Source: Escherichia coli (lineage in GTDB: Bacteria; Pseudomonadota; Gammaproteobacteria; Enterobacterales; Enterobacteriaceae). Taken from it: a stretch of DNA of 64,000 nt. Below the pieces are notes generated by a model. It ran no database searches and was not told where the DNA came from. It was given only the letters and a program-made list of their open reading frames with translations. Of the stretch, positions 5,795 through 47,358 are shown one piece after another. The translations under genes were made by a program, and so were the position numbers. Every line of letters begins with the position of its first letter. The first letter of the stretch is position 1. The stretch lies in assembly GCF_003018235.1 (NCBI RefSeq), contig NZ_CP027437.1, one strand, 5' to 3'.

Positions 5795-5799
5795 TCTTC

Positions 5800-5824: not shown

Positions 5825-5904
5825 GGAATACCTTTCGATTTCTCTTTCGTTCCGGCTTATAATCCCCGGCCTTTGATTATTTTTTTATCATTTCTGGAAG
5901 CAAA

Positions 5905-8473: not shown

Positions 8474-9400
8474 TCATTGTTTTAATCTGGCGGCGGTTTT
8501 TGCCTCAATCTGCTTAAGTAGGCTGCCGCTGTTCGGGCGGATAAAATCAGCGATTTCCCACTTACCTTCGCGCCGCTGTAAAATCAGTTCTTGCTCTTCG
8601 TTGTTGCCATTGGTCAGCGTAAAACGAACATGAATGCGGGCGGAATCGGTGGTTTTCTCCAGGACTCGAATTTCATCAACGCGGGAAAATAACGACTCTT
8701 CGCCAAAACAGATCGGATTGTCGTAAATAAATTGCCGTTCTATTTGCATATCTTCATCGGGATTGTTGGCAGTCTTGAAGGTGGTTTTATAGAAGGCATT
8801 GACCGCCTGGCGGTAAGAGTCGGAAACCACCCACGTCCACGGCCAGCTATAATCAGCAATATGTTCAAAGAGTTCGGCAACAAAGGCTTCCGGCTGTTCT
8901 TTTTGCAACGAAGCTATAGCGGCCAGCGTTTTTTCATTCTCGCTATTAACTGCTTGTAAGACGCTGCCATGATTGCTGACAATATCGTCAATGACCCAAC
9001 GACCATTTTCCGCCACCATTTTCAGTGTCTGCATGGTCTTTTCTTTGTCGTCTTTAAAGATACGAAAGCGCACAACGGCATCGGCATGATCGGCGTCAGG
9101 TTGTGTTATCGCTACGCTTTCTAACACCAGATCGCCAAAATCCTGACAATCACAAACCGGATCATAATCCAGCCAGCCAATATTGCCCGGTAGTGTAAGA
9201 TTGTCGTTCAGCGTAAGCGCCTGTTGAATACGCGCAGAAGTTATCGCTCGCTCCCCGGTTTCACCAAAATAAGGCGTACTGGCATCTGATTTATAGTTCT
9301 GATAAATCTGCCGGACTGTTTGTTCTACGGTCTGTGAAGGAGGCTGCGCCTGTACGGTAAAACTTGCCAGGGCTGCTAAAAACAGAAGTATTATTTTCAT
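8474..9400 (-). CDS. yqhG: Secreted protein of unknown function (DUF3828-like)
   Basis: 308-aa ORF with N-terminal signal peptide; synteny next to yqhH and dkgA. Confidence 0.75.
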   Translation of the reverse strand: MKIILLFLAALASFTVQAQPPSQTVEQTVRQIYQNYKSDASTPYFGETGERAITSARIQQALTLNDNLTLPGNIGWLDYDPVCDCQDFGDLVLESVAITQPDADHADAVVRFRIFKDDKEKTMQTLKMVAENGRWVIDDIVSNHGSVLQAVNSENEKTLAAIASLQKEQPEAFVAELFEHIADYSWPWTWVVSDSYRQAVNAFYKTTFKTANNPDEDMQIERQFIYDNPICFGEESLFSRVDEIRVLEKTTDSARIHVRFTLTNGNNEEQELILQRREGKWEIADFIRPNSGSLLKQIEAKTAARLKQ

Positions 9401-9599
9401 CTGTTTTTCACCTCTCCGTTGCGTTTATCCCGGGTGTAGATGAATTGTTCCTTTAAGAGCTTCCGGCTCTGCATGATGATATCCTTATATTTGGCATTCC
9501 TGAACAAGGAAGAGTAACAATGGGCAGGACGCGAGGGGAATAAATGATTTCTGAAAAGTCCGGTAGCGGAACATTACCGCCACCGGGAGAATTTGCACG

Positions 9600-10427
9600 T
9601 TAGCCGCCAAACTGGTCAGGATCGGGACCGAGACGCTTGCCCTGATCGAGTTTTGCAATTTCGCCGAGTTCGTCTTTGTCGAGACGGAAATCCCAGACAT
9701 CAAAGTTTTCGGCAATACGTGAAGGTGTGACCGATTTCGGGATCACCACCAGGCCGCTATCCAGATGCCAGCGGATAACAATCTGCGCCGGGGTTTTGCC
9801 GTATTTATCTGCCAGATCGCGAATGACTTTCTGATCGAAAACGCCTTTCCCTCCTTGCGCTAATGGGCTCCAGGATTCGGTCTGGATTTTGTGTGTCGCG
9901 TTCCAGGCATGTAGCTGGCGTTGTTGCATCAGCGGGTGAAGTTCGATCTGGTTTATCACAGGCGTCACGCCAGTTTCATCAATCAGGCGTTGCAAGTGAT
10001 GGATCTGGAAGTTGCACACGCCGATGCTTTTGATTAATCCCTCTTTTTGCAATTCGATCATGCCTTTCCATGCTTCGACATAATGGTCGATAGCGGGAAC
10101 GGGCCAGTGCATTAAGTAGAGGTCGATATAATCAAGCTGGAGTTTTTTCAGGCTGTCGAGCAGGGCTTCGCGGGGGCGCTTGTGGTCGTCGTTCCACAGT
10201 TTAGTGGTGATGAACAGTTCTTCTCTGTTGACTGAGGCATTTTTCAGGGCTTTGCCGACACCTTCTTCGTTCTTATAGGCCGCGGCGGTATCAATCGAGC
10301 GATAACCCACGTCTAACGCTTTTTGAATGGCGGTGATTACTTCCTCATTACTTGCTTGCCAGACGCCCAGTCCCAACTGGGGCATGACATTGCCATCCTG
10401 TAGCTTAATAACGGTTGGATTAGCCAT
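9600..10427 (-). CDS. dkgA: 2,5-diketo-D-gluconate reductase A / methylglyoxal reductase (aldo-keto reductase)
   Basis: 275-aa ORF of the AKR family; synteny with yqhD and yqhC. Confidence 0.9.
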   Translation of the reverse strand: MANPTVIKLQDGNVMPQLGLGVWQASNEEVITAIQKALDVGYRSIDTAAAYKNEEGVGKALKNASVNREELFITTKLWNDDHKRPREALLDSLKKLQLDYIDLYLMHWPVPAIDHYVEAWKGMIELQKEGLIKSIGVCNFQIHHLQRLIDETGVTPVINQIELHPLMQQRQLHAWNATHKIQTESWSPLAQGGKGVFDQKVIRDLADKYGKTPAQIVIRWHLDSGLVVIPKSVTPSRIAENFDVWDFRLDKDELGEIAKLDQGKRLGPDPDQFGG

Positions 10428-10531
10428 ACGTTCCTCCTTTATATGAACTCACCGGAGCAGGCTCCGGTGAGGTGTTGTGAACTTAAGTCTGGACGAAATG
10501 CCCGAAAACGAAAGTTTGAGGCGTAAAAAGC

Positions 10532-11695
10532 TTAGCGGGCGGCTTCGTATATACGGCGGCTGACATCCAGCGTAATGTCATGATTTTCGCCCAGTTGGGT
10601 CATACCGTGCTCTTCCAGTTTTTTCAACAAAGCCGGGATGGAGCTGCCGTCCAGACCGTAGTCGGAGAGGTGGGTCGGCACGCCTAATTGCTCAAAGAAA
10701 TTGCGGGTTGCGGCAATCGCGGCGTCAATACGCTCATCGTCGGAACCTTCTGTGATGTTCCAGACGCGTTCAGCATATTGCAGCAGCTTAGCGCGCTTGG
10801 TATCGCGTTTTTCATTCCACAGTGCAGGCAGGACGATAGCCAGTGTTTGTGCGTGATCCAGACCGTGCATCGCAGTCAGTTCGTGGCCTAGCATATGCGT
10901 TGCCCAGTCCTGCGGTACGCCAGCGCCAATCAAACCGTTCAGCGCCTGAGTCGCCGCCCACATAACGTTGGCGCGCACATCGTAGTTTTCTGGCTCTTTC
11001 AGGGCTTTCGGACCATCTTCGATCAGCGTCAACAAAATGCCTTCTGCGAAACGGTCCTGAATTTTGGCATCAACCGGTTTGGTAACATACTGTTCCACGG
11101 TGTGCACAAAGGCATCCACTACACCGTTAGCCACCTGACGCGGCGGCAGAGTGTAGGTATAAACCGGATCGAGCACGGCAAATACGGGTTGAACATGGGC
11201 AGAATGGAATGCCTGCTTGTCGCCTGTGGTTTTACGGGAGATCACCGCGCCTGCGTTGGATTCTGAACCGGTTGCTGGCAGCGTCAGCACACAGCCCATC
11301 GGGATGGCGCTTTTAATTTCTTTACCGCCCGTTTGTAGAATGTGCCACGGATCGATATTTTCCGGATAATTAGCCGCTGCGGCGATAAATTTGGTGCCGT
11401 CCAGTACAGAACCGCCGCCAACCGCCAGCAGGAAAGTCACTTTTTGTTCGCGAACCAGTTTCACGGCGTTCATCAGCGTTTCATAAGCCGGGTTTGGCTC
11501 AATACCGCCAAATTCCAGCACGTCCATGCCTTTCAGGGCATCCAGAACTTGATCGAGAACGCCGGTTTTTTTCACGCTGCCGCCGCCGTAGGTAATCAAT
11601 ACGCGAGCATCGTGAGGAATTTGTTCGCGTAAACCAGCGATTGCGCCTTTACCAAAAAGAATGCGGGTTGGGGTGTGCAGATTAAAGTTGTTCAT
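10532..11695 (-). CDS. yqhD: NADPH-dependent aldehyde reductase (iron-containing alcohol dehydrogenase family)
   Basis: 387 aa from ATG at 11695 ([17 protein letters not shown]); the longer ORF upstream is an in-frame extension. Confidence 0.9.
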
Positions 11696-34991: not shown

Positions 34992-35748
34992 ATGGATGCA
35001 CTACAAACACAAACTGTTAAGAGTACAACCGCGCCGCAGCCCAACTACATTCCGGGGCTGATTGCGGTGGTCGGGTGTGATGGCACCGGTAAATCCACGC
35101 TGACCACCGACCTGGTGAAATCGCTGCAACAACACTGGCAAACCGAGCGGCGCTATCTGGGGCTGCTCTCCGGCGAAGACGGCGACAAAATCAAACGATT
35201 GCCGTTGGTTGGCGTCTGGCTGGAACGGCGGCTGGCGGCCAAATCCTCGAAAACCCAAAGCATGAAAACCAAATTTCCAGCGCTATGGGCGGCGGTGATT
35301 ATGTACTGCTTCTCGCTGCGAAGAATGGCGAATCTACGCAAGGTTCAGCGACTGGCGCAAAGTGGCGTTCTGGTGGTCAGCGATCGCTTCCCGCAGGCTG
35401 AAATTTCGGGCTTTTATTATGACGGACCGGGGATCGGCGTCGAACGTGCGACCGGGAAAATCAGCATGTTTCTGGCGCAGCGCGAACGGCGTTTATACCA
35501 ACAAATGGCGCTACCGTCCTGAATTAATCATTCGCCTGGGCATTGATATTGATACTGCCATCTCCCGCAAGCCTGACCATGACTATGCCGAGCTGCAGGA
35601 CAAAATCGGCGTCATGTCGACGATTGGCTATAACGGCACAAAAATTCTTGAGATTGATTCCAGAGCGCCTTACAGCGAGGTGCTGGAACAGGCACAGAAG
35701 GCGGTTTCTCTGGTTGCCATCGTTTCTGACCGCCGAAGTTTAACTTAA
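34992..35748 (+). pseudogene. yghR: P-loop NTPase YghR interrupted by a frameshift near 35511 (two ORF pieces, 34992-35522 and frame +1 to 35748)
   Basis: Alignment to YghS/YghT (…LYQWMASYLP… / …FHWMASHKP…) shows the frame changing after QQMA; the repaired product would be 252 aa. Confidence 0.7.
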
Positions 35749-35793: not shown

Positions 35794-37143
35794 TTGGCGG
35801 GTTTTAACATCAAACATTGGTTTGCAGATGGCGCGTTTCGCACCATTATTCGCAATAGCGCCTGGTTAGGCTCCAGTAATGTCGTGAGCGCCTTGCTGGG
35901 TCTGTTGGCGCTCTCGTGTGCCGGTAAAGGGATGACGCCCGCCATGTTTGGCGTACTGGTGATTGTGCAATCGTACGCCAAGTCGATCAGCGATTTTATT
36001 AAGTTTCAGACATGGCAGCTGGTGGTTCAGTACGGAACGCCAGCCTTGACCAACAATAATCCGCAGCAATTTCGCAATGTTGTCTCATTTTCCTTCTCGC
36101 TGGATATCGTCAGCGGCGCGGTGGCGATTGTCGGCGGCATTGCCTTACTGCCATTCCTTTCCCATTCATTAGGTCTGGATGACCAAAGCTTTTGGCTGGC
36201 GGCGCTCTATTGCACGCTCATTCCTTCAATGGCTTCCTCCACGCCGACCGGCATTCTGCGTGCGGTAGATCGCTTTGATTTGATTGCTGTACAGCAGGCG
36301 ACGAAACCTTTTCTGCGCGCAGCGGGGAGCGTCGTAGCCTGGTATTTTGACTTTGGTTTTGCGGGTTTTGTTATTGCCTGGTACGTGTCGAATCTGGTTG
36401 GCGGCACCATGTACTGGTGGTTTGCCGCGCGCGAATTACGCCGCAGAAATATCCATAACACCTTCAAATTGAATCTGTTTGAGTCTGCCCGACACATTAA
36501 AGGCGCGTGGAGTTTTGTCTGGTCAACCAACATTGCCCACTCCATCTGGTCGGCACGTAACTCGTGCAGCACAGTGCTGGTGGGGATCGTGTTAGGACCC
36601 GCTGCCGCCGGGTTATTTAAAATCGCCATGACATTCTTCGACGCCGCCGGAACGCCAGCGGGTTTACTGGGTAAAAGTTTTTACCCAGAGGTGATGCGTT
36701 TAGATCCGCGCACCACCAGACCGTGGTTGTTAGGCGTGAAGTCCGGTTTACTGGCGGGCGGAATCGGTATTCTGGTGGCGCTCGCGGTGTTGATCGTCGG
36801 CAAGCCGCTCATTTCGCTGGTGTTTGGCGTTAAGTATCTCGAAGCGTATGACCTGATTCAGGTGATGCTGGGCGCAATTGTGATTTCGATGCTGGGCTTC
36901 CCACAGGAGTCATTGCTATTGATGGCGGGAAAACAGCGCGCTTTTCTCGTGGCGCAAACCATCGCCTCAATCGGCTACATCGTATTGCTGTTCATGTTCT
37001 GTCATCTGTTTGGCGTGCTGGGGGCTGCATTTGCTTACTTCGCTGGGCAATGTCTGGATGTGGTGTTCTCGCTAATTCCAACCTTAAAGGCATTTTTTCA
37101 GCGCCATTCCTTGCTTTATAACGCAGCCGGAGAGAAATCCTGA
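35794..37143 (+). CDS. yghQ: Multi-pass membrane protein of the MOP/Wzx-like flippase superfamily; start codon uncertain
   Basis: 449-aa ORF (maximal), highly hydrophobic; K-12 annotation is shorter, to my recollection. Confidence 0.7.
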   Translation: MAGFNIKHWFADGAFRTIIRNSAWLGSSNVVSALLGLLALSCAGKGMTPAMFGVLVIVQSYAKSISDFIKFQTWQLVVQYGTPALTNNNPQQFRNVVSFSFSLDIVSGAVAIVGGIALLPFLSHSLGLDDQSFWLAALYCTLIPSMASSTPTGILRAVDRFDLIAVQQATKPFLRAAGSVVAWYFDFGFAGFVIAWYVSNLVGGTMYWWFAARELRRRNIHNTFKLNLFESARHIKGAWSFVWSTNIAHSIWSARNSCSTVLVGIVLGPAAAGLFKIAMTFFDAAGTPAGLLGKSFYPEVMRLDPRTTRPWLLGVKSGLLAGGIGILVALAVLIVGKPLISLVFGVKYLEAYDLIQVMLGAIVISMLGFPQESLLLMAGKQRAFLVAQTIASIGYIVLLFMFCHLFGVLGAAFAYFAGQCLDVVFSLIPTLKAFFQRHSLLYNAAGEKS

Positions 37144-37967
37144 TGATGAGAAAATATTTCCCGCTTGAGGCTAGCGAGCGTCTATTTGTTGCGATTGAAG
37201 AAGATGATGTCGTTGATGCACAGGTCAGTTTGCCGCCGACTATCGCACTAAGTTGTACCACCGAAATCATCCATGATAATTACGCGTTATGCCTGAAATT
37301 CTGGCTGGATGGTGTTAATCGTCAGGAGCTACTGCGTTTAATCCGCAAACAGGCGAAAGGCGATGAGCTGACGACAGACGAGCGCAAAAAGTATAAATAC
37401 ATGCGAGCGCGCTACAAGCATCTGCGCTTTGCGCAACGGCTGTATTTAAAGAAGCATCAGGCCGGATTTTTATTCGGCAAAACGACCGTTTTTTTGGGGC
37501 GTTTTCAGGACGGCTTTCGTAACGGTAAGAAAAATATTGTGTCGTATTACGGCAACCTGTTACGGGTTTATTTAAGCTCTCCGGTCTGGTCGTTGGTGAA
37601 CTATTCATTACGCCATAGCCAGTTAGAAAGCGTAAGCGGTTTTATTGCCTATCGGCAAAAGCAAATGCATACCCTGAAAGAGATAATTGCCAAACCGCGA
37701 CTAACTGGCAGGGAATTTCATGATGTGCGAAAAATCATCAGCCAGCAGGTTTCTTATTACGACACCCTAAGATCGCTTGATCCTGAAAATAAAGAGGCGT
37801 TACAGATTTCCCGCTTCCTCGCCGCCATTAATGGCCTGATGGGGGATAAACACGACGACATGGTGGCGGATGATATGGAAAACCGCCAGTCGTATGATGC
37901 ACCGGTGGCGCTGGATAGCGATATTCGCCAGCGCTTAGAGCTGCTGATTTCGCGTTTTCCGCTATAA
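37143..37967 (+). CDS. Hypothetical protein, 274 aa, no recognisable domain
   Basis: Start overlaps the yghQ stop (TGATG); charged, non-membrane. Confidence 0.55.
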   Translation: MMRKYFPLEASERLFVAIEEDDVVDAQVSLPPTIALSCTTEIIHDNYALCLKFWLDGVNRQELLRLIRKQAKGDELTTDERKKYKYMRARYKHLRFAQRLYLKKHQAGFLFGKTTVFLGRFQDGFRNGKKNIVSYYGNLLRVYLSSPVWSLVNYSLRHSQLESVSGFIAYRQKQMHTLKEIIAKPRLTGREFHDVRKIISQQVSYYDTLRSLDPENKEALQISRFLAAINGLMGDKHDDMVADDMENRQSYDAPVALDSDIRQRLELLISRFPL

Positions 37968-37975
37968 CCGGAGCA

Positions 37976-38539
37976 ATGATGTCATCTCGTTTGATTATTG
38001 CGCTGATTATCATGCTCTTAGCCCCGGGTGTGCAGGCACACAATTTCGTCACTGGCAAAACGGTTACCCCTGTTTATATCCAGGAAGGCGGCGAGCTGCT
38101 TCTGAATAGCGACGACGAAATTCACTACCAAAAGTGGAACAGCACACAGCTGGCGGGAAAAGTTCGCATTATTCAGTATATCGCCGGGCGTAAGTCGGCG
38201 AAGAAAAAGAACTCACTGTTAATTAAAGCGGTTGAAGCGGCAAACTTTCCGCAGGATCGTTTTCAGCCCACCACCATTGTGAACACCGATGATGCCATTT
38301 TTGGTACTGGCTATTTTGTCGTTGGCAAAATCGAAAAAAATAAACGCCGCTATCCGTGGGCGCAATTCGTTATTGACGGCAATGGACAGGGACGCGTTGC
38401 CTGGCGGTTGCCGGAGCAGAGTTCAACCATTCTGGTGCTGAATAAAGCCGGGCAAATTCAGTGGGCAAAGGACGGCAGCCTGACGCCGGAAGAGGTAGAA
38501 CATGTCATTGCGCTGGCGCAGAAACTGATCAATGAATAA
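37976..38539 (+). CDS. YtfJ-family periplasmic protein
   Basis: 187-aa ORF; signal peptide MMSSRLIIALIIMLLAPGVQA; conserved TTIVNTDDAI and WAKDGSLTPEEV blocks recalled from E. coli YtfJ. Confidence 0.55.
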   Translation: MMSSRLIIALIIMLLAPGVQAHNFVTGKTVTPVYIQEGGELLLNSDDEIHYQKWNSTQLAGKVRIIQYIAGRKSAKKKNSLLIKAVEAANFPQDRFQPTTIVNTDDAIFGTGYFVVGKIEKNKRRYPWAQFVIDGNGQGRVAWRLPEQSSTILVLNKAGQIQWAKDGSLTPEEVEHVIALAQKLINE

Positions 38540-38569
38540 AAAATTCAAAGGATTGAGGGCGTTAGTGAG

Positions 38570-39640
38570 ATGAAGCTGGTTGAACACTACATCATGCGTG
38601 GTACGCGCCGTCTGGTGCTGATTATCGTCGGTTTTCTGATCTTTATTTTCGCCAGCTACTCCGCACAGCGTTATCTGACCGAAGCGGCAAATGGGACATT
38701 AGCTCTTGATGTTGTGCTGGATATTGTTTTCTACAAGGTGCTGATTGCACTGGAGATGTTGTTACCTGTTGGACTGTATGTGTCAGTTGGCGTGACGCTA
38801 GGGCAGATGTATACCGACTCGGAAATTACCGCTATTTCTGCGGCGGGGGGCAGTCCGGGACGCTTGTACAAAGCCGTTCTTTATCTGGCGATACCGCTAA
38901 GTATTTTTGTCACCCTTCTGTCGATGTATGGTCGTCCGTGGGCTTATGCGCAGATTTATCAACTGGAGCAACAGTCACAGTCGGAGCTGGATGTTCGCCA
39001 GTTGCGGGCAAAGAAATTTAACACTAACGATAACGGACGAATGATCCTTTCGCAGACGGTTGATCAGGATAATAATCGCCTGACTGACGCGCTGATTTAT
39101 ACTTCTACTGCCAATCGAACCCGCATTTTCCGCGCCCGTTCGGTTGATGTGGTTGACCCATCACCTGAGAAACCGACCGTTATGTTGCATAACGGGACCG
39201 CCTATCTTCTCGATCATCAGGGGCGTGACGACAACGAACAGATCTACCGTAATCTGCAATTACATCTGAATCCGCTGGATCAAAGCCCTAACGTCAAACG
39301 CAAAGCAAAATCGGTCACGGAGCTGGCGCGCTCCGCCTTTCCTGCCGATCATGCCGAACTGCAATGGCGACAAAGCCGTGGCCTGACAGCATTGTTGATG
39401 GCGCTGCTGGCCATTTCATTAAGTCGGGTAAAACCGCGGCAAGGGCGATTTTCAACGTTATTGCCACTGACGTTGCTGTTTATTGCCATTTTTTATGGCG
39501 GCGACGTCTGCCGTACGCTGGTGGCTAACGGCGCGATTCCCCTCATTCCTGGTTTGTGGTTAGTACCCGGACTCATGCTAATGGGCCTGCTGATGCTGGT
39601 CGCACGCGACTTCTCATTGCTGCAGAAATTTTCCCGATGA
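38570..39640 (+). CDS. LptF-like permease (YjgP/YjgQ family)
   Basis: 356-aa ORF; N-terminal TM helices, periplasmic beta-jellyroll-like insert, C-terminal TM helices. Confidence 0.65.
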   Translation: MKLVEHYIMRGTRRLVLIIVGFLIFIFASYSAQRYLTEAANGTLALDVVLDIVFYKVLIALEMLLPVGLYVSVGVTLGQMYTDSEITAISAAGGSPGRLYKAVLYLAIPLSIFVTLLSMYGRPWAYAQIYQLEQQSQSELDVRQLRAKKFNTNDNGRMILSQTVDQDNNRLTDALIYTSTANRTRIFRARSVDVVDPSPEKPTVMLHNGTAYLLDHQGRDDNEQIYRNLQLHLNPLDQSPNVKRKAKSVTELARSAFPADHAELQWRQSRGLTALLMALLAISLSRVKPRQGRFSTLLPLTLLFIAIFYGGDVCRTLVANGAIPLIPGLWLVPGLMLMGLLMLVARDFSLLQKFSR

Positions 39641-40716
39641 ATGTTTTCAGTCGCTATTTAATCCGTCATCTCTTTCTCGGTTTTGCCGCCGCCGCAGGGC
39701 TATTGCTGCCGCTTTTTACCACCTTCAACCTGATTAACGAACTGGATGATGTCAGCCCGGGCGGTTATCGCTGGACTCAGGCGGTGCTGGTGGTGCTGAT
39801 GACCTTACCGCGTACACTGGTCGAACTTTCGCCGTTTATCGCATTATTGGGAGGGATTGTTGGCCTGGGGCAGTTATCGAAAAACAGTGAGCTTACCGCC
39901 ATTCGCAGCACGGGGTTTTCTATCTTCCGTATTGCACTAGTGGCGCTGGTTGCCGGGATATTGTGGACTGTTTCGTTAGGCGCGATAGATGAGTGGGTGG
40001 CGTCGCCATTGCAGCAACAGGCGCTGCAAATCAAATCGACTGCCACCGCGTTGGGGGAGGACGATGACATTACCGGCAATATGCTTTGGGCCAGGCGCGG
40101 TAATGAATTTGTGACGGTGAAATCGCTGAACGAGCAGGGCCAGCCTGTGGGCGTGGAGATATTTCATTATCGCGACGATCTCTCGCTCGAATCCTACATT
40201 TTTGCACGCAGTGCCTCCATTGAAGACGACAAAACATGGATCCTGCATGGTGTGAATCATAAAAAATGGTTGAATGGCAAGGAAACGCTGGAAACATCAG
40301 ATAATCTTGCCTGGCAATCGGCCTTCACCAGTATGAATCTTGAAGAGTTATCGATGCCGGGAAATACTTTTTCTGTCCGTCAACTTAATCATTACATCCA
40401 TTATTTGCAGGAAACTGGGCAACCCAGCAGCGAATACCGCCTTGCACTGTGGGAAAAACTGGGACAACCCATCCTGACCCTGGCGATGATTTTGCTGGCT
40501 GTGCCGTTTACCTTTAGTGCCCCGCGTTCGCCTGGGATGGGTAGCCGTCTCGCTGTAGGCGTCATCGTGGGCTTACTTACCTGGATCAGCTATCAAATCA
40601 TGGTCAATCTGGGATTGCTATTTGCGTTGAGCGCACCTGTTACCGCGCTCGGTTTACCGGTAGCGTTTGTGCTGGTGGCGTTGAGCCTGGTGTATTGGTA
40701 TGACAGACAACATTAA
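39637..40716 (+). CDS. LptG-like permease (YjgP/YjgQ family), paired with the upstream gene
   Basis: 359 aa from ATG at 39637 (MNVFSRYLIRHLF), overlapping the upstream stop (ATGA). Confidence 0.65.
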   Translation: MNVFSRYLIRHLFLGFAAAAGLLLPLFTTFNLINELDDVSPGGYRWTQAVLVVLMTLPRTLVELSPFIALLGGIVGLGQLSKNSELTAIRSTGFSIFRIALVALVAGILWTVSLGAIDEWVASPLQQQALQIKSTATALGEDDDITGNMLWARRGNEFVTVKSLNEQGQPVGVEIFHYRDDLSLESYIFARSASIEDDKTWILHGVNHKKWLNGKETLETSDNLAWQSAFTSMNLEELSMPGNTFSVRQLNHYIHYLQETGQPSSEYRLALWEKLGQPILTLAMILLAVPFTFSAPRSPGMGSRLAVGVIVGLLTWISYQIMVNLGLLFALSAPVTALGLPVAFVLVALSLVYWYDRQH

Positions 40717-40746
40717 ACCCGCCGTGGCGCAACACCACAGCGGGCT
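40717..40746. terminator. Hairpin between the convergent permease and lipid-synthesis operons
   Basis: cccgccgtgg-N7-ccacagcggg, 10-bp stem with one mismatch. Confidence 0.4.
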
Positions 40747-40750
40747 CACA

Positions 40751-41923
40751 TTACTGCTTCAGAGTAGCGAACGCTTGAATGATGGCATCAATTTGCTCAC
40801 GACTGTGGGCAGCGTTTACGCTACAGCGCAGCAGCGTGATGCCTGCAGGCGCGGCAGGTGGCAGGATAAGATTCACATAAACGCCCAGCGAAATAAGCTC
40901 GCGCCAGATGCGTAAACCTTCCTCTTTCGAACCGATTATTACTGGCACTACCGGGCTAATATGTGAACTTAACTCATAATCCAGTTTTTGCAGACCGTCA
41001 TACAGATGGTTGGCATTATCCATCAGCTTTTGCCGCAACTCTGGTTGTGAGACAATGGTTCTTAACGACGAGCGCACGGTCGCAATGCAGGACGGAGAAG
41101 GAGAGGCGGTAAAAATATACGGGCGGCTGCCGTAGCGCAACACTTCCATCGCTTCCGAACCGACAGCAAAACCGCCAATCGAGGCCAGGCTTTTACTGAA
41201 GGTACCAACGATAATATCCACATCATCTTCAACGCCAACGGCTTCAGCCAGTCCGCGCCCCGTTGCGCCTAACACGCCAAACGAATGCGCTTCATCGACA
41301 ATCAAATAACCACCGAGACGACGTTTGATATCAACAATTTCCGCCAGCGGCGCAACGTCACCGAGCATACTGTAGATGCCTTCAACGATGATAATCGCCT
41401 CTTTTGCCCGTTCACCGAGGCGAACCATGCGCCGTTCCAGATCTTTAGCATCGTTATGGCGGAAACGAATAATTTCCGCGCCACCGAGAGAACAGGCGTC
41501 ATAAATACTGGCGTGGCTGTCGGCATCCAGTAACACCACGGCGTTATGGTCGGCAAGTGCGCTGATGACGCCTAAATTAGCGGTATAACCGGTTGAAAAA
41601 ACGATAGCGGTAGGGCGATTAAAAAACTCGGCGATCTCTTTCTCTAACGCCAGATGCGGCGCATAACTGCCGTTTGCCATACGAGAACCGGTGGTGCCGG
41701 TGCCTTGGGCCGCTAACGCTGCCTGACCTTCGGCGATGGCATCATGATTAAAGGTTAAACCGAGATAATTATTGGTCCCGGCCAGAATCACTTTTTTATT
41801 GCCGATCCGACCTTCGGTGGCGGAATACACTTCATCAATACAGGTGCCAAACGGTGTTAACCCGTTGTCACTAAATTGCAGTCGCTCGCCAGCAAGGCGC
41901 GCATATTTATCGTATAGCCCCAT
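40751..41923 (-). CDS. PLP-dependent alpha-oxoamine synthase, serine palmitoyltransferase-like
   Basis: 390-aa ORF; PLP-lysine motif GTFSKSLASIGG (SPT-like rather than BioF GTFGKA or Kbl GTLGKA) and DADSHAS histidine motif. Confidence 0.75.
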   Translation of the reverse strand: MGLYDKYARLAGERLQFSDNGLTPFGTCIDEVYSATEGRIGNKKVILAGTNNYLGLTFNHDAIAEGQAALAAQGTGTTGSRMANGSYAPHLALEKEIAEFFNRPTAIVFSTGYTANLGVISALADHNAVVLLDADSHASIYDACSLGGAEIIRFRHNDAKDLERRMVRLGERAKEAIIIVEGIYSMLGDVAPLAEIVDIKRRLGGYLIVDEAHSFGVLGATGRGLAEAVGVEDDVDIIVGTFSKSLASIGGFAVGSEAMEVLRYGSRPYIFTASPSPSCIATVRSSLRTIVSQPELRQKLMDNANHLYDGLQKLDYELSSHISPVVPVIIGSKEEGLRIWRELISLGVYVNLILPPAAPAGITLLRCSVNAAHSREQIDAIIQAFATLKQ

Positions 41924-42171
41924 TATTTATTCTCCAGCCATGGAAGTAGTGTTTCCATTAATTGCGCAGGGGTTTTGACATCCAGCAGAATATTAATAGG
42001 AATGGAAATATCGAATCTGTCTTCCAGCATCATTAAGAGATCCATCACTTTGATCGACTCCAGGCCAAGATCGTTGACGAGATCGCTGTCGGGCTTAATT
42101 TCCACACCGTTTTCGACCAAATCCTGTAAACAGGAAAGGATGTAATCCATTACTATTTCACGATTTACCAT
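41923..42171 (-). CDS. Dedicated acyl carrier protein
   Basis: 82-aa acidic ORF with phosphopantetheine-site-like DLGLESIKVMDL; stop overlaps the downstream start. Confidence 0.7.
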   Translation of the reverse strand: MVNREIVMDYILSCLQDLVENGVEIKPDSDLVNDLGLESIKVMDLLMMLEDRFDISIPINILLDVKTPAQLMETLLPWLENK

Positions 42172-42202
42172 AGAAACGTTAACACACCTTTAAACAAGAC
42201 AA

Positions 42203-43117
42203 TCAAAATAGCCCGTTGCGTAATGCGTGTTCCAGGCTAATCCCGGGAAACCAATTAATATCTTCAGAAATACGGTTATTACTTGCCGACCAGTCGGCAT
42301 GAGTTAATTCACGGATTTTCGAACGAGTCAGCATCGGTTCTTTACCCGCCAGACGGCTCAACGCGGTACTGATATCCGCAAGGCAGGTGAGTAGCGGCAG
42401 AGGAATACCGACCATCCGCACGGAACCGCAACGGGCGTCGGCGGCAAGCTGTCTTACGCGTTGCCAGTCATAGCCTCCGGCGACGCCATCGCATAATTCA
42501 TAGGTTTGCGTCTGTACAGTTTCGGCGCTTAACCACTGACCCACTGCTTGCGCAAAATCGGTGACGTGAAGAAAAGAGAGCTGTGTCTCTGGCGTGCCAA
42601 GTCGTGGCAGCAGGCCGCGCAGCATCCAGTCAAACAGCGGTTTTAACTCTTTATCGCCGGGACCATACACGGCTGTCGGGCGAAAAACGCCCAGCGTAAT
42701 TTCATCAGCCATTGCAGTCAGCCGTTGTTCGGCGACGTGTTTGGAATTTGCGTACCAGGAGAGTTCGGGATGGCGCGCCGCCAGCGAAGAGATAAACAGA
42801 AAACGTTGGCAAAAGCCGCTCTCTTTTGCCGCTTGCATCAGGCGCAGGCTGCCGTCAACGTTACAGCGGGTAAAAATCTCTTCTTTGTGTCCGCGCACTT
42901 GTCCGGCGCAATGGACCACCGCGCTGGCTCCGGCAACCAGTTCGCTAAGCGAATGTGTATCTTCCAGCGAACCGCGCACCCAGATGAGATTATCATTGAC
43001 GTGAGCGCGGGCAGTACGCGTCAATGCGCGAACGTGAAAGCCGCGGGCGAGCAGGTTATCGATAATATATTTACCGATAAACCCGGTAGCGCCCGTCACC
43101 GCGACAGTTTGATTCAT
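42203..43117 (-). CDS. NAD(P)-dependent epimerase/dehydratase-fold reductase (extended SDR)
   Basis: 304-aa ORF; Rossmann motif GATGFIG; catalytic YANSK (YxxxK). Confidence 0.7.
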   Translation of the reverse strand: MNQTVAVTGATGFIGKYIIDNLLARGFHVRALTRTARAHVNDNLIWVRGSLEDTHSLSELVAGASAVVHCAGQVRGHKEEIFTRCNVDGSLRLMQAAKESGFCQRFLFISSLAARHPELSWYANSKHVAEQRLTAMADEITLGVFRPTAVYGPGDKELKPLFDWMLRGLLPRLGTPETQLSFLHVTDFAQAVGQWLSAETVQTQTYELCDGVAGGYDWQRVRQLAADARCGSVRMVGIPLPLLTCLADISTALSRLAGKEPMLTRSKIRELTHADWSASNNRISEDINWFPGISLEHALRNGLF

Positions 43118-44850
43118 GCCAGGGATTCCTGCACATGAAGGCTTGCAGCATAACGTTTTTTCGCTTCCGCACGGGCAGGCTTGCCGGAGGACGTTCGGGG
43201 AATACTGTGGGGCGGCAACAGATCGATAGCCGCTGTTACGCCAAATTCGCTTTGGATCCGTGCTACCAGTGCGTGGATAAGCTGCCCACGACGTTCTTCG
43301 TCGCTGATCCTACACTGGATCTGCAGAATGATTTTTTCCTGGGCGGTAACAAAAGCAATCGCATCGCCAGAATGAATTTCCGGTTCCTGTTCCGCAATAT
43401 ATTCAATATCCTGCGGCCAGATATTACGGCCACGAATAATAATCAGATCTTTAATGCGTCCGGTGACATACAGATAACCGTCCAGCAGATAACCGAGGTC
43501 GCCGGTGTCTAACCAGCCCGTCGCGGCAATCTCGTCTTGTGAAATCTGGTCGCCAAAGTAACCGCTCATCAGGCTAGGGCCGGAGATGCAAATATGGCCT
43601 ACCACACGTTCCGCGACAGGTATACCTGCTTCATTGCGGATTTCAATGCCATGTTCCGGCAACGCTTTACCGCAGTTGACGAAAGTCGATACGGCGCGTG
43701 TTTCAGCATCCGGCGCGACGGCTTTGCCCTGATATTCGAGGATGTCGCGATCCACTTCGTTAACCACAACCCCGGAAGCTTCATCAGAGAAGCTGACAGC
43801 CAGCGCATTTTCTGCCAGTCCGTAGCACGGCATGAAAGTTTTATCGTCAAAGTTGACCTGACGGAAACATTCAGCGAATTGATGGAGTTGTTCTGCGGAG
43901 ATGGGTTCTGCACCAATACCAGCGACGCGCCAGCAGGAAAGATCCAGTTCAGCGAGATCTTTTTCATTCACGCGGCGCTGGCACAATTCATAGCCAAACG
44001 GCGGCGCAACGGAAACGGTGCCGCGATTTTTACTGATCAATTTAAGCCATTGCAGAGGACGCATGGCAAAATCCTGAGTGCGCAAATAATCTACTGAAAG
44101 CTGCGTGGCGACGGGGGGCAGGAGAAAGCCGACCAGTCCCATATCATGGTAGAAAGGCAGCCAGGAGACGCAGCGGTCGCCAGGGCGTAATTTAATGCCA
44201 TCGTGGCTTATAGCACGTAGATTAGCCATCACTTCGCGATGGGTGATAATGACGCCACGGGGAAAACGGGTGCTGCCGGAGGTGTACTGGAGGTAGGCGA
44301 TATCGTTCGGAACTGGACGCTGGAGCGCAACATCGGCTTCCGGTAATGCCTTAAACCAGGCGTGGCTTAAAACATGTAATTCGGGGTTGTTATGCGTAGC
44401 GGCATTGACCAGTGGCAACCACTCATCACCAGTGATAATGGCTGCGGGCTGGCAACTTGCCAGTAAACCCTGCAGTTTGGCGCTCCAGGAATCCCGCTGA
44501 CCGACGCCCATTGGAATCGCCAACGGGACGGCGACTAAGCCGGCATACTGGCAGGAAAAAAAAGCCTCTACGAACCCGCTACTGGTTTCGGCAATCAGCG
44601 CCACGCGATCGCCTTTTTTCAGGTTCAGCGATAACAACCGCTTCGCACCAGCTTCGGCACGCGCTTTTAACGTCTGATATTCCAGTTGATCTTCAAGTTG
44701 GCAACGTCTGTCATAAAAATTCATTCCGGCGCTACTCAGAGCGGCGTAGTCCAAAGCATCAACCAGCGTTGGAAAATCGGCATAGCGCATAGGTAGGGAA
44801 TGCGTAAAGATTTTATTAGACATATACACCACGAAAAAATTGGATATCAA
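43114..44850 (-). CDS. Adenylate-forming acyl-AMP ligase / acyl-ACP synthetase-like enzyme; start uncertain
   Basis: 578-aa ORF; AMP-binding motif YTSGSTRFPRG; 4-nt overlap with the downstream reductase gene. Confidence 0.7.
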   Translation of the reverse strand: MISNFFVVYMSNKIFTHSLPMRYADFPTLVDALDYAALSSAGMNFYDRRCQLEDQLEYQTLKARAEAGAKRLLSLNLKKGDRVALIAETSSGFVEAFFSCQYAGLVAVPLAIPMGVGQRDSWSAKLQGLLASCQPAAIITGDEWLPLVNAATHNNPELHVLSHAWFKALPEADVALQRPVPNDIAYLQYTSGSTRFPRGVIITHREVMANLRAISHDGIKLRPGDRCVSWLPFYHDMGLVGFLLPPVATQLSVDYLRTQDFAMRPLQWLKLISKNRGTVSVAPPFGYELCQRRVNEKDLAELDLSCWRVAGIGAEPISAEQLHQFAECFRQVNFDDKTFMPCYGLAENALAVSFSDEASGVVVNEVDRDILEYQGKAVAPDAETRAVSTFVNCGKALPEHGIEIRNEAGIPVAERVVGHICISGPSLMSGYFGDQISQDEIAATGWLDTGDLGYLLDGYLYVTGRIKDLIIIRGRNIWPQDIEYIAEQEPEIHSGDAIAFVTAQEKIILQIQCRISDEERRGQLIHALVARIQSEFGVTAAIDLLPPHSIPRTSSGKPARAEAKKRYAASLHVQESLA

Positions 44851-45194
44851 AAATAAAATGACAATAATGCGGTGGATTATATAGGCATAAAAGATAAATG
44901 AGATAGTATTTTCATCAGTGTGAAAATGAACATTGATTTAAATAATGAGTTTGAGTTTTTTTGTTTTTATTGTGAATGATATTTAATTTATGAATGTATT
45001 AAGAAGAAGCCTTGTCCGGTCGCCTTAAATCGACAAAAGGCATTGTGGCGCTTCTGTGTAGTCTCTGACCTTATCGTAATCATTAATAAATGCTATTTAT
45101 TCGTCGTTTGTATTCATTGGGTTGATTATTAAGGTGCCGTTCGTTGCTGTTGCAACCTGTTTGTCACCGTTAATTATTTGTTACCCACAGAACT

Positions 45195-46337
45195 ATGGAA
45201 TGCGATCTGCTGATGATTAAAATTGAAAAAGTAATTAATAAAAATGACCTTAAGGCATTTATCGCTTTTCCGTCATCACTTTATCCCGACGATCCAAACT
45301 GGATACCCCCTTTATTCATTGAACGCAACGAGCATTTGTCTGCGAAAAATCCGGGGACGGACCATATCATCTGGCAGGCGTGGGTGGCAAAAAAAGCCGG
45401 GCAGATAGTTGGGCGAATTACCGCGCAAATCGATACCTTGCACCGTGAGCGTTACGGTGAAGATACCGGTCATTTCGGCATGATTGACGCCATTGATGAT
45501 CCGCAGGTTTTTGCCGCGTTGTTTGGCGCAGCGGAAGCGTGGTTGAAGTCACAAGGAGCAAGTAAGATCAGCGGGCCTTTCAGCCTGAATATCAATCAGG
45601 AAAGCGGATTACTGATTGAAGGTTTCGATACACCACCCTGTGCGATGATGCCGCACGGTAAACCGTGGTATGCCGCGCATATTGAACAATTGGGTTATCA
45701 CAAAGGCATTGATTTACTGGCGTGGTGGATGCAGCGAACCGATCTCACTTTCTCTCCGGCGCTAAAAAAACTGATGGATCAGGTGCGTAAGAAGGTGACC
45801 ATTCGCTGCATCAATCGCCAGCGGTTTGCCGAAGAGATGCAGATCCTGCGTGAGATTTTCAACTCTGGCTGGCAGCACAACTGGGGATTTGTGCCGTTTA
45901 CCGAACATGAATTCGCGACCATGGGCGATCAACTTAAATATCTGGTGCCGGACGATATGATCTACATCGCTGAGATTGATTCTGCACCCTGCGCGTTTAT
46001 TGTCGGCTTGCCAAACATCAACGAGGCGATTGCCGATCTGAACGGATCGCTCTTTCCCTTCGGCTGGGCAAAATTGCTGTGGCGTTTAAAAGTCAGCGGT
46101 GTGCGAACTGCGCGAGTACCGCTGATGGGCGTGCGGGACGAGTATCAGTTTAGCCGCATCGGCCCGGTGATTGCGCTGTTATTGATTGAAGCCTTACGCG
46201 ATCCGTTTGCCCGCCGGAAGATCGATGCGCTGGAAATGTCATGGATCCTCGAAACCAATACAGGCATGAATAACATGCTGGAACGCATTGGGGCGGAGCC
46301 GTACAAGCGTTACCGATTGTATGAAAAGCAGATTTAA
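45195..46337 (+). CDS. yghO: GNAT-fold acyltransferase-like protein, intact
   Basis: 380-aa ORF, divergent from the lipid operon across an AT-rich region; GNAT assignment is from recollection of this family, not a motif scan. Confidence 0.6.
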   Translation: MECDLLMIKIEKVINKNDLKAFIAFPSSLYPDDPNWIPPLFIERNEHLSAKNPGTDHIIWQAWVAKKAGQIVGRITAQIDTLHRERYGEDTGHFGMIDAIDDPQVFAALFGAAEAWLKSQGASKISGPFSLNINQESGLLIEGFDTPPCAMMPHGKPWYAAHIEQLGYHKGIDLLAWWMQRTDLTFSPALKKLMDQVRKKVTIRCINRQRFAEEMQILREIFNSGWQHNWGFVPFTEHEFATMGDQLKYLVPDDMIYIAEIDSAPCAFIVGLPNINEAIADLNGSLFPFGWAKLLWRLKVSGVRTARVPLMGVRDEYQFSRIGPVIALLLIEALRDPFARRKIDALEMSWILETNTGMNNMLERIGAEPYKRYRLYEKQI

Positions 46338-46343: not shown

Positions 46344-47108
46344 CTAACTCTGGTTCATCTCCAGCGGCACCGCCGAGCGAATCAAATGGTGGCCTTCCAG
46401 CTCGATATCGTGGAGATTCTTTTTCACGGTCCGCACATGATCGCGTGCTGCGCGCTGGGCGACGTGCGGCAGCCGCTGCAACACCGCGTTGTAGATCCGC
46501 GCATGCTGGCGATCGATCTGCTTTTTTTGCTGTGGTCGATGGTAGAGATTATTTACGCTGGCAAACACTGAATTAAACATCAGGTCGGTCAATGATTGCA
46601 GTGTAAACACCAACACCTGATTGTGAGAAGCCTGACAAATGGCGAGATGGAAAGCGTGATCCAACTGCGCATGTTCGATCAGCGAAATCTCTTTGTTGTT
46701 CTCACTGGCGGCGAGCATTTTTTCATAACAGCGGGTTATCACAACAAAATCAGCCTGCGTTCCCAGCGTTGCCGCCAGCCTTGCCGATTCGCCCTCCAGC
46801 AATGCGCGAACGTCGAGCAGATCATACAGCGTTCGCGGCTGCGTACTGAACAGATGGATCAGCGGGCTGGTGTCCTGCACCCGATTAAGCCGTGCGACAC
46901 GAGAATCGCGACCCTGCGCCGTTTCAATAATCCCGCGCCCGCGCAGCACGGTCAGCCCTTCACGCAGTGCGGAGCGTGAGAAGCCGAGCTTTTCACACAG
47001 TCGACGTTCCGAGGGAAGCGGCTGACCGACCTTCAGTACGCCGTCGATAATTAACCGTTCGATACTCTCTGCAACCACTTCGCAAATAGGGCGACGTTCA
47101 TCTTTCAT
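46344..47108 (-). CDS. glcC: GntR/FadR-family transcriptional activator of the glc operon
   Basis: 254 aa from ATG at 47108 (MKDERRPICEVVAESIE); divergent from glcD. Confidence 0.9.
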   Translation of the reverse strand: MKDERRPICEVVAESIERLIIDGVLKVGQPLPSERRLCEKLGFSRSALREGLTVLRGRGIIETAQGRDSRVARLNRVQDTSPLIHLFSTQPRTLYDLLDVRALLEGESARLAATLGTQADFVVITRCYEKMLAASENNKEISLIEHAQLDHAFHLAICQASHNQVLVFTLQSLTDLMFNSVFASVNNLYHRPQQKKQIDRQHARIYNAVLQRLPHVAQRAARDHVRTVKKNLHDIELEGHHLIRSAVPLEMNQS

Positions 47109-47358
47109 TCCCGGACCTCGTGCACAGGTAGGACCAATTTTTCTGTTCTTGACTCGCAAAACACGCACATCACGTAAGTGATTATGTTACATCAATTTAA
47201 CATTAAGTTAACCAAGACAAGGTCACAGAGCTGGAAAAAAAATGGTCTGACCGGTAGCTAAAGAGATAGACGAAAACGAAAAGCCCGCTTAATAACTGTT
47301 CACAGAAGCAGCGCGCAAAAATCAGCTGCCACACAACACAACAAAGCGAAGCCTACTC

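What the first reader, a model, noticed from the sequence alone, without database searches (positions are those of the whole stretch)
45195..46337. YghO as the candidate N-acyltransferase of the pathway (bacterial ceramide-synthase-like role)
YghO is intact here (380 aa) and divergently transcribed from the four-gene lipid operon across an AT-rich control region. I recall it as a GNAT-fold family member, which makes it a candidate for N-acylating the amino-lipid intermediate, analogous to GNAT-type bacterial ceramide synthases. My recollection is that K-12 carries only a remnant of this gene.
Basis: inference. Interest (0 to 1): 0.6.

Follow-up and report, generated by a model that had tools for sequence, protein, structure and literature searches.

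The report
E. coli YghO, bacterial ceramide synthase orthologue
The gene is real and very probably makes the enzyme that attaches the second fatty chain in a sphingolipid pathway carried by about three quarters of E. coli strains, but this role was already proposed in print in 2022, so the finding is correct rather than new.

Summary
Window 45195-46337 (+) is an intact yghO ORF of 380 aa. The conserved start is Met7 at 45213, which gives 374 aa. It is transcribed divergently from aasR-cerR-acpR-spt across 389 bp of 33% GC DNA.

YghO is an orthologue of the GNAT-type bacterial ceramide synthase, not just an analogue.
- It keeps all 33 columns that are at least 90% conserved in the family, and it is under strong purifying selection.
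- Its homologues sit next to spt/acpR/cerR/aasR or a second lptF/lptG pair in 52 of 56 long loci from many phyla.
- Padilla-Gomez et al. 2022 (PMC9386255) already list "aca: CC_1154, yghO ECD_02850" and report 44% identity over 98% coverage to the Caulobacter enzyme.

The K-12 "remnant" claim is overstated. K-12 keeps residues 14-380. An IS5-associated deletion removed the 5' end, the promoter and about 10 kb upstream.

The four-gene operon is present in 4067 of 5426 complete E. coli genomes. Direct enzymology of E. coli YghO is still missing.

Verdict: already known, low interest.

The parts
45195..46337 (+). yghO: tandem-GNAT N-acyltransferase and orthologue of bacterial ceramide synthase (bCerS/CerS/Aca). 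The longest ORF is 380 aa. The conserved start is Met7 at 45213, giving 374 aa. N-terminal GNAT domain about residues 1-175 and C-terminal GNAT domain about 195-374 (374-aa numbering).
44824..45212 (.). AT-rich divergent intergenic region (389 bp, 33% GC) between aasR and yghO. It presumably carries both promoters. No regulator site was identified.
   Evidence: Composition; sequence. The consensus promoter scan was not above shuffled expectation. The equivalent spacer is AT-rich (26-42% GC) in nine other Enterobacterales loci (eight other genera), but no 10-mer is shared across all genera.
43114..44850 (-). aasR: fatty acyl-AMP ligase / specialised acyl-ACP synthetase. The likely true start is near 44823 (MSNKIF...).
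   Evidence: NCBIfam NF006624, 867 bits against a cutoff of 600. The BL21 orthologue ECD_02851 was shown to acylate AcpR (PMC9386255).
42203..43117 (-). cerR/epi: NAD-dependent epimerase/dehydratase-family reductase (keto-sphinganine or oxidised-ceramide reductase). No signal peptide.
   Evidence: NCBIfam SDR/epimerase hits; the N-terminus begins with the Rossmann motif; listed as epi ECD_02852 in PMC9386255
41923..42171 (-). acpR: specialised acyl carrier protein
   Evidence: ACP family hits. The BL21 orthologue ECD_02853 was shown to carry 4'-phosphopantetheine (PMC9386255).
40751..41923 (-). spt: serine palmitoyltransferase
   Evidence: NCBIfam NF047599 equivalog, 594.9 bits against a cutoff of 500; annotated 'spt' in RefSeq. 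The BL21 enzyme is active and prefers acyl-AcpR.
38570..40716 (+). Second copies of lptF (38570-39640) and lptG (39637-40716). Candidate export module for the lipid.
   Evidence: TIGR04407 and TIGR04408 above cutoff. LptF/LptG paralogues accompany YghO homologues in 43 of 56 long loci. Caulobacter LptF2/LptG2 lie next to cerS (PMC11324152).
35794..38539 (+). yghQ (MOP/Polysacc_synt-type flippase-like, 35794-37143), a 274-aa ORF (37143-37967) and a YtfJ-family gene (37976-38539). These travel with the cluster in other Enterobacterales. Whether they belong to the pathway is inferred only.
   Evidence: ORFs; YtfJ TIGR01626; the same genes occur in Pluralibacter and others; K-12 yghQ is truncated by the same IS5 event
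46344..47168 (-). glcC, the right-hand boundary. It is not part of the module. In Serratia and Pluralibacter the genes to the right of yghO are different.

Best explanation
YghO is the ceramide synthase (N-acyltransferase) step of a Caulobacter-type bacterial sphingolipid pathway encoded at this locus.

Proposed pathway:
- AasR loads a fatty acid onto the dedicated carrier AcpR.
- Spt condenses acyl-AcpR with serine to give 3-ketosphinganine.
- YghO transfers a second fatty acyl chain from an acyl thioester onto the C2 amino group of the long-chain base. The base is 3-ketosphinganine in the Klein-lab order, or sphinganine in the Geiger-lab order.
- CerR carries out the keto reduction, giving dihydroceramide.
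- The neighbouring LptF2/LptG2 pair, and possibly YghQ, would export the lipid.

YghO is a soluble or peripheral two-domain GNAT enzyme. Its C-terminal GNAT domain carries the acyl-thioester-binding motifs.

Shown here: the fold, retention of conserved residues, purifying selection, conserved synteny and distribution among E. coli genomes.
Taken from papers: orthology to the genetically required Caulobacter CC_1154, the activities of E. coli AasR, AcpR and Spt, and ceramide-like products in BL21.
Inferred: the actual substrate, the acyl donor and the order of steps for the E. coli enzyme.

For: Orthology: CC_1154 vs BL21 YghO gives 44% identity, 98% coverage and E 1e-107, and yghO is named 'aca' in PMC9386255. 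I measured 49-50% identity over residues 2-374 to the Nitrosomonas eutropha locus, a species listed in that paper. CC_1154 is required for dihydroceramide formation in Caulobacter (PMC11324152).

Context: an ACP-Spt-YghO operon occurs in a vent MAG. The same divergent aasR-cerR-acpR-spt <> yghO module occurs in Serratia and Pluralibacter with different right flanks and in two unrelated genomes. Of 56 loci of at least 18 kb, 52 carry a synthesis gene or LptF2/G2 within 10 kb, and 31 carry Spt. The divergent AasR<>YghO pairing is seen in 24 of 80 loci. A natural YghO-FAAL fusion protein exists.

Integrity: all 33 columns that are at least 90% conserved are kept, and dN/dS is far below 1.

Experiment: BL21(DE3) expressing AcpR, AasR and Spt forms compounds that migrate like sphinganine and ceramide. 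The authors attribute these to the chromosomal ECD_02852 and ECD_02850.
Against: E. coli YghO has not been tested directly. The BL21 evidence is TLC co-migration, and the attribution to YghO is the authors' suggestion. Empty-vector controls gave no 3-oxo-sphinganine in cell-free extract assays, so I infer the cluster is silent or weakly expressed in the laboratory; native sphingolipid in E. coli was not reported in the papers I read. I could not retrieve the Caulobacter sequence or Stankeviciute et al. 2022, so the comparison with the validated enzyme rests on a published table. The canonical GNAT pyrophosphate-binding loop is poorly conserved in sequence, and YghO itself has no Pfam GNAT hit. 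The acyl donor (CoA or AcpR thioester) and the order relative to CerR are unresolved.
Confidence: 0.85

Rival explanations
1. YghO N-acylates the long-chain base as proposed, but its physiological donor is acyl-AcpR made by AasR rather than acyl-CoA. One ligase/carrier pair would then supply both chains of the ceramide. This is a variant of the main mechanism and not a different role.
For: aasR and yghO share a divergent promoter region in 24 of 80 loci, spanning several orders. A 940-aa natural fusion joins a YghO domain to a fatty acyl-AMP ligase. Rhodobacterial Spt prefers acyl-AcpR to acyl-CoA.
Against: PMC9386255 calls the enzyme an acyl-CoA N-acyltransferase. From my own recollection of Stankeviciute et al. 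2022, which I could not check here, Caulobacter bCerS used acyl-CoA in vitro. In many genomes yghO homologues lie far from aasR, for example in Nitrosomonas. The fusion is a single metagenomic representative with no spt nearby.
Confidence: 0.2
2. YghO is a GNAT with an unrelated substrate, such as a protein lysine, an aminosugar or an antibiotic, and its position next to the lipid operon is incidental.
For: The closest solved folds acetylate small amines and aminoglycosides. K-12 studies have treated YghO as a candidate lysine acetyltransferase.
Against: Association with sphingolipid genes is conserved across phyla, in 52 of 56 long loci. The module moves as a unit with different flanks. In the lysine-acetyltransferase screen, YghO is not among the GNATs that produced acetylated bands, though that test used the IS5-altered K-12 allele.
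Confidence: 0.05
3. YghO is a DNA-binding or biofilm-associated transcriptional regulator, as older annotations and some papers state.
For: Database names such as 'DNA-binding protein' and 'DNA-binding transcriptional regulator' persist. One preprint repeats this description.
Against: The whole chain is modelled confidently as two GNAT domains, leaving no segment for a DNA-binding domain. No Pfam HTH hit was found. The synteny is with biosynthetic genes.
Confidence: 0.01
4. The cluster is a silent relic in E. coli and YghO has no current function.
For: Empty-vector BL21 controls gave no 3-oxo-sphinganine. The control region is AT-rich. The cluster has been lost or disrupted in K-12 and in some ST131 isolates. 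yghR is frameshifted in this window.
Against: The operon is retained in 4067 of 5426 complete genomes. yghO is under strong purifying selection. The E. coli Spt, AcpR and AasR proteins are active when expressed.
Confidence: 0.08

Closest known systems
Bacterial ceramide synthase of Caulobacter crescentus (CC_1154 = CerS/bCerS/Aca)
   Same: Full-length homologue: 44% identity and 98% coverage in PMC9386255 Table S2. It has the same size class and no transmembrane segment. It has the same partners, Spt, AcpR, AasR and CerR, and it lies near a second LptF/LptG pair.
   Different: In E. coli yghO is directly divergent from aasR. In Caulobacter cerS lies eight genes from spt, next to lptG2. The E. 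coli cluster lacks the ceramide-phosphoglycerate genes listed for Caulobacter (CC_1158-1161, 1152, 1153). E. coli CerR has no signal peptide, whereas Caulobacter CerR is reported to be periplasmic. The E. coli enzyme has not been assayed.
Tandem-repeat GNAT acyltransferases with solved structures (MAB_4324 7q3a, MshD 1ozp, clavulanate ORF14 2wpw, glucosamine N-acetyltransferase 5kf1, Eis)
   Different: Sequence identity is only 13-17%. Those enzymes transfer acetyl groups to small polar amines, whereas YghO is expected to transfer a long acyl chain to a lipid amine. YghO is about 40-80 residues longer than most of them.
Eukaryotic ceramide synthases (Lag1/CerS, TLC domain)
   Same: The proposed overall reaction is the same: N-acylation of a sphingoid base.
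   Different: The fold and topology are unrelated. Eukaryotic CerS enzymes are intrinsic membrane proteins. YghO is a soluble GNAT with no transmembrane segment. This is the convergence described in the literature (one search gives the reference).

Membership tests
Bacterial ceramide synthase (bCerS/CerS/Aca; type member Caulobacter CC_1154 = CCNA_01212) | Full-length sequence homology to the experimentally validated Caulobacter protein | not testable with these tools
   I could not obtain the CC_1154 sequence. It was not among the 80 loci returned, the named clusters or the top AFDB50 hits, and Stankeviciute 2022 is not held. The published value is E 1e-107, 44% identity, 98% coverage for CC_1154 vs BL21 YghO.
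Bacterial ceramide synthase (bCerS/CerS/Aca) | Full-length homology to other proteins that the literature assigns to the family | tested here: met
   49-50% identity over residues 2-374 to the Nitrosomonas eutropha locus L072 and 43-46% to Roseovarius, Acidocella and Robiginitomaculum loci. The paper lists the N. eutropha aca orthologue as Neut_1100. The family is full-length, with 1128 representatives at E<=1e-30.
Bacterial ceramide synthase (bCerS/CerS/Aca) | Genomic association with spt, acpR, aasR and cerR, and/or the second lptF/lptG pair | tested here: met
   In the window itself. In 52 of 56 loci of at least 18 kb from other species, with Spt itself in 31.
Bacterial ceramide synthase (bCerS/CerS/Aca) | Soluble or peripheral protein without transmembrane segments | tested here: met
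   The maximum 19-residue Kyte-Doolittle mean is 1.36. Caulobacter bCerS has no predicted transmembrane region and is peripheral.
Bacterial ceramide synthase (bCerS/CerS/Aca) | Retention of the family's conserved residues | tested here: met
   YghO has the consensus residue in all 33 columns that are at least 90% conserved across 86 diverse homologues.
Bacterial ceramide synthase (bCerS/CerS/Aca) | Catalyses N-acylation of a sphingoid long-chain base and is required for ceramide formation | not testable with these tools
   Only indirect evidence exists: ceramide-like TLC spots in BL21 expressing AcpR, AasR and Spt.
GNAT superfamily (tandem-repeat subgroup) | GNAT alpha/beta fold, present twice in one chain | tested here: met
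GNAT superfamily (tandem-repeat subgroup) | Recognisable acyl-CoA binding motifs A (beta4-alpha3) and B | tested here: inconclusive
   The family profile aligns positions 311-380 to motifs A and B of 3tt2 (E 0.002) and 2ge3 (E 0.017). YghO alone has no Pfam GNAT hit even at E<=10. Only 8 of 86 homologues reach PF00583 at E<=1e-3. The Q/R-x-x-G-x-G/A loop is not conserved in sequence.
Eukaryotic-type ceramide synthase (Lag1/TLC) | Multi-pass membrane protein with a TLC/Lag1 domain | tested here: not met
   No Pfam hit, no transmembrane segment, and a GNAT fold.
Protein lysine acetyltransferases of E. coli | Overexpression raises protein lysine acetylation | not tested
   From the literature only. 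YghO (K-12 ASKA clone) was in the panel of 25 GNATs but is not among those that gave acetylated bands. That allele has an IS5-derived N-terminus.

The most novel reading that the evidence does not exclude
The physiological acyl donor of the YghO/bCerS family is acyl-AcpR loaded by AasR, not acyl-CoA. A single dedicated ligase/carrier pair would then feed both chains of the ceramide and keep the pathway separate from bulk acyl-CoA and acyl-AcpP pools. If so, most E. coli strains (about 75%) would carry a complete but conditionally silent ceramide pathway with its own Lpt-like exporter. The hints are the widely conserved divergent aasR<>yghO pairing (24 of 80 loci) and a natural YghO-FAAL fusion.
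Probability: 0.2. Interest if true: 0.5.

Novelty: already known. Interest (0 to 1): 0.25.

Why it matters
E. coli is usually described as having no sphingolipids. This locus gives most strains the genes for making a ceramide and possibly for exporting it to the outer membrane. YghO would be the step with no eukaryotic counterpart.

The assignment itself was published in 2022.
- a confident structural model showing a tandem GNAT, for a family that has no Pfam or NCBIfam model of its own and is still named 'N-acetyltransferase', 'DNA-binding protein' or 'dATP pyrophosphohydrolase' in databases;
- a quantified synteny test across phyla;
- the corrected start codon;
- the count showing that the cluster is the majority state in E. 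coli and that K-12 is a recent IS5 deletion variant.

The open experimental gaps are direct enzymology of YghO, its acyl donor, and the conditions under which E. coli expresses the cluster.

Tried and rejected
- Sequence-library identification failed. Pfam gave nothing for YghO even at E<=10, NCBIfam gave nothing, and PDB sequences gave nothing meaningful. The fold had to come from structure prediction.
- I tried to get the Caulobacter CC_1154 sequence for a direct comparison, without success. Two cluster look-ups on 20 representatives returned no Caulobacter names. The genome scan returned 80 loci with no Caulobacter. AFDB50 showed none in its top 50. Stankeviciute et al. 2022 is not held. 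The ISME J supplement has no sequences.
It was repeated with 21 sequences.
- I looked for a conserved regulatory motif in the divergent intergenic region across Enterobacterales. No 10-mer is shared across all genera, and the promoter/terminator consensus scan was not above shuffled expectation. I make no claim about regulation.
- I rejected the transcription-regulator reading on the fold. I rejected the lysine-acetyltransferase reading on synteny and on the negative published screen.
- I rejected 'K-12 has only a remnant', because 367 of 380 codons are intact.

Full report
WHAT IS THERE

Window 45195-46337 (+) is a single uninterrupted ORF of 380 aa. A 99.9% identical E. coli chromosome (strain EFF60) annotates the same 1143-nt gene as yghO, 'protein YghO'.

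Genes to the left, on the opposite strand:
- a fatty acyl-AMP ligase at 43114-44850 (NF006624, 867 bits against a cutoff of 600);
- an NAD-dependent epimerase/dehydratase-family reductase at 42203-43117;
- an 82-aa acyl carrier protein at 41923-42171;
- a serine palmitoyltransferase at 40751-41923 (NF047599 equivalog, 594.9 bits against a cutoff of 500).

Further left, on the + strand, are second copies of lptF and lptG (38570-40716) and a YtfJ-family gene. To the right are glcC and glcDEFGB.

The spacer between the ligase and yghO (44824-45212, 389 bp) is 33% GC. The flanking genes are 50-55% GC.

START CODON

Homologues in Serratia, Pluralibacter, Erwinia, Tatumella, Pseudocitrobacter, Rosenbergiella, Hafnia and Pseudomonas are 374 aa long. 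They begin at the residue equivalent to Met7 of the E. coli ORF, and an AAGG motif lies 7-9 nt upstream. In E. coli the same position reads ATGGAA, which creates the extra in-frame ATG. The conserved protein therefore starts at 45213. Residue numbers below use the 374-aa numbering.

IS IT A REAL, FUNCTIONAL GENE?

An exhaustive HMMER search finds 6489 cluster representatives at E<=1e-3 and 1128 at E<=1e-30. Nearly all are full-length proteins of 370-400 aa. YghO carries the consensus residue in all 33 columns that are at least 90% conserved in an alignment of 86 diverse members. Nei-Gojobori estimates are dN 0.0012 / dS 0.093 against K-12 and dN 0.020 / dS 0.324 against another E. coli. Between genera dN is about 0.13 and dS is saturated. 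This is strong purifying selection.

FOLD

Sequence libraries do not recognise the protein. There is no Pfam match even at E<=10, no NCBIfam family and no meaningful PDB sequence hit. An AlphaFold2 model built on the 86-sequence alignment is very confident: mean pLDDT 96.6, pTM 0.93, and 367 of 374 residues at or above 90.

The protein is thus two GNAT domains in one chain, at roughly residues 1-175 and 195-374.

A profile of the family aligns its positions 311-380 with motifs A and B of the tandem GNAT 3tt2 (E 0.002) and of 2ge3 (E 0.017). The segments concerned are 'mGVrkkYq..lGaalaallie' and 'ElSWiLedNkamnrlieklG'. This places the acyl-thioester site in the C-terminal domain, as in MshD-type enzymes. 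The placement is an inference from alignment and not a demonstrated binding site. 8 of 86 homologues reach Pfam PF00583 at E<=1e-3, and 31 of 86 at E<=0.1. No transmembrane segment is predicted. The fold is GNAT.

LINK TO THE LIPID PATHWAY

The literature already makes this link. Padilla-Gomez et al. 2022 (PMC9386255) studied the same cluster in E. coli BL21(DE3). They showed that ECD_02853 is a phosphopantetheinylated carrier (AcpR), that ECD_02851 acylates it (AasR), and that ECD_02854 is an Spt that prefers acyl-AcpR. They list 'aca: CC_1154, yghO ECD_02850' among the five dihydroceramide genes. [quoted passage not shown] They also note that compounds migrating like sphinganine and ceramide appear in BL21 when AcpR, AasR and Spt are expressed. 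Their Table S2 gives CC_1154 vs ECD_02850 as E 1e-107, 44% identity, 98% coverage.

CC_1154 is one of the five genes required for dihydroceramide formation in Caulobacter. The Klein laboratory calls it bCerS and the Geiger laboratory calls it CerS. It is cytoplasmic and peripherally membrane-associated. In the held library, PMC9386255 is the only paper that mentions both yghO and sphingolipids.

INDEPENDENT TEST BY GENE NEIGHBOURHOOD

Individual contexts:
- A hydrothermal-vent MAG has ACP-Spt-YghO in one operon, and the depositor named the protein 'Hypothetical protein associated with Serine palmitoyltransferase'.
- Deltaproteobacterial contigs have the order YghO, nucleotidyltransferase, LptF, LptG, then further on a DAGK_cat kinase.
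- Serratia liquefaciens and Pluralibacter gergoviae have the same divergent aasR-cerR-acpR-spt <> yghO module as E. coli, but with different genes to the right. The module therefore moves as a unit independently of glcC.
- Two unrelated genomes with about 44% identical homologues show the same divergent ligase <> yghO pairing, followed by LptF/LptG and a DAGK_cat kinase.

These range from Enterobacterales (76-96% identity) through Pseudomonas (60-70%) and Nitrosomonas (about 49%) to Nitrospira, Roseovarius, Acidocella, Robiginitomaculum, Desulfopila and others.

I ran tblastn with the window's own proteins against these loci. Of the 56 loci with at least 18 kb of sequence:
- 52 have a sphingolipid-synthesis gene or an LptF2/LptG2 pair within 10 kb;
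- 31 have Spt itself;
- 43 have LptF2/LptG2.

The divergent AasR <> YghO arrangement, with a 236-833 bp gap, occurs in 24 of the 80 loci.

One representative protein of 940 aa is a natural fusion of a YghO domain (residues 5-374) with a fatty acyl-AMP ligase (386-933).

DISTRIBUTION IN E. COLI AND THE K-12 STATE

The four-gene operon is present at 80% coverage or more in 4067 of 5426 complete E. coli genomes. The yghO-ligase junction is present in 4144. The cluster is therefore the majority state and is not a peculiarity of B strains.

In K-12 an IS5 sits immediately upstream of yghO, and similarity to the window begins at 45235. Everything between the 3' part of yghQ and codon 13 of yghO is missing, including lptF2/lptG2 and the operon. 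The remaining 367 codons are 98% identical at the protein level, and PGAP still calls a 378-aa CDS with an IS5-derived N-terminus. That N-terminus replaces beta-strand 1 of the first GNAT domain. The K-12 protein used in published screens may therefore not be native.

One ST131 isolate shows the opposite loss. The operon and lptF/lptG are kept, while yghO and the glc region are replaced by IS1 and a pap island.

MECHANISM AND WHAT REMAINS INFERRED

The best-supported reading is that YghO N-acylates the long-chain base made by Spt. Three things are not settled for E. coli.

(a) Substrate. It is unclear whether YghO acts on 3-ketosphinganine or on sphinganine, and the two Caulobacter groups disagree on the order of steps. 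E. coli CerR starts directly with its Rossmann motif and has no signal peptide. The compartment argument used for Caulobacter therefore cannot be carried over.

(b) Acyl donor. The papers call the enzyme an acyl-CoA N-acyltransferase. The conserved pairing with aasR and the ligase fusion leave open acyl-AcpR as the donor.

(c) Expression. It is not known whether or when E. coli expresses the cluster. Empty-vector controls gave no 3-oxo-sphinganine in cell-free extract assays. I found no conserved regulatory motif in the AT-rich spacer.

RIVAL READINGS

A transcription-factor role persists in database names and in a preprint. It is excluded by the fold. A lysine-acetyltransferase role is unsupported: YghO was in a panel of 25 GNATs and is not among those that gave acetylation signals, with the caveat that the K-12 allele was used. 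An unrelated small-molecule substrate is made unlikely by the synteny statistics.

VERDICT

It is already in the literature as an explicit, named proposal, resting on a genetically validated orthologue. What is new here is supporting detail: the tandem-GNAT model, quantified synteny, the start codon, prevalence in E. coli, the precise K-12 lesion, and the absence of any dedicated Pfam or NCBIfam model for the family. I found no experiment in the held literature that tests E. coli YghO directly.

Noticed in passing
window 34992-35748 (+): yghR appears frameshifted in this strain. The ORF ends at 35522 ('...QQMALPS*'), while the rest of the K-12 YghR sequence ('YRPELIIRLGID...') continues in another frame (35362-35748). 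This is either a pseudogene or a sequencing error.
   Followed up: partly
window 42203-43117 (-): The CerR-like reductase begins directly with its Rossmann motif (MNQTVAVTGATGFIGKY), so there is no room for a signal peptide. Caulobacter CerR is reported to be periplasmic (PMC11087976). The compartment-based argument for the order of steps may not apply to E. coli.
   Followed up: partly
window 35794-40716 (+): yghQ (a MOP/Polysacc_synt flippase-like gene), a 274-aa ORF, a YtfJ-family gene and second copies of lptF and lptG sit between yghRST and spt. They recur with the cluster in Pluralibacter, Pseudocitrobacter, Hafnia and Erwinia persicina. This looks like a dedicated export module, comparable to Caulobacter LptC2/F2/G2 plus a putative flippase.
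   Followed up: partly
L001 (K-12) 3738-5967; window about 37100-45234: A single IS5-associated deletion in K-12 removed about 10 kb. It truncated yghQ at its 3' end and yghO at its 5' end. The literature still describes K-12 yghO as an IS5 target or as a 'biofilm-associated transcriptional regulator'.
   Followed up: yes
L007 (E. coli ST131 isolate) 9085-11538: In this ST131 chromosome the spt operon and lptF/lptG are intact, but yghO and the glc genes are replaced by IS1 and a pap fimbrial island. That strain would have the pathway without its N-acyltransferase.
   Followed up: no
P0191 / L010 8001-10823: A 940-aa metagenomic protein fuses a YghO-type tandem GNAT (residues 5-374) to a fatty acyl-AMP ligase (386-933). 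No spt is nearby and an MGDG-synthase-like glycosyltransferase is next to it. Other long family members were not analysed: P0121 (784 aa, two YghO-like halves) and P0132 (630 aa, unknown N-terminal 264 aa).
   Followed up: partly
family-wide: The YghO/bCerS family has no dedicated Pfam or NCBIfam model. Databases name its members inconsistently, as 'N-acetyltransferase', 'DNA-binding protein', 'dATP pyrophosphohydrolase' or 'virulence-associated protein VagC'. The published function has not propagated into annotation.
   Followed up: partly
L003, L004, L008, L009: In distant lineages the YghO homologue is followed by an NTP_transf_3 nucleotidyltransferase, a metallophosphatase, a DAGK_cat kinase and a Tam41-like gene. 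These may be head-group (ceramide phosphate type) genes. The E. coli cluster lacks them.
   Followed up: no
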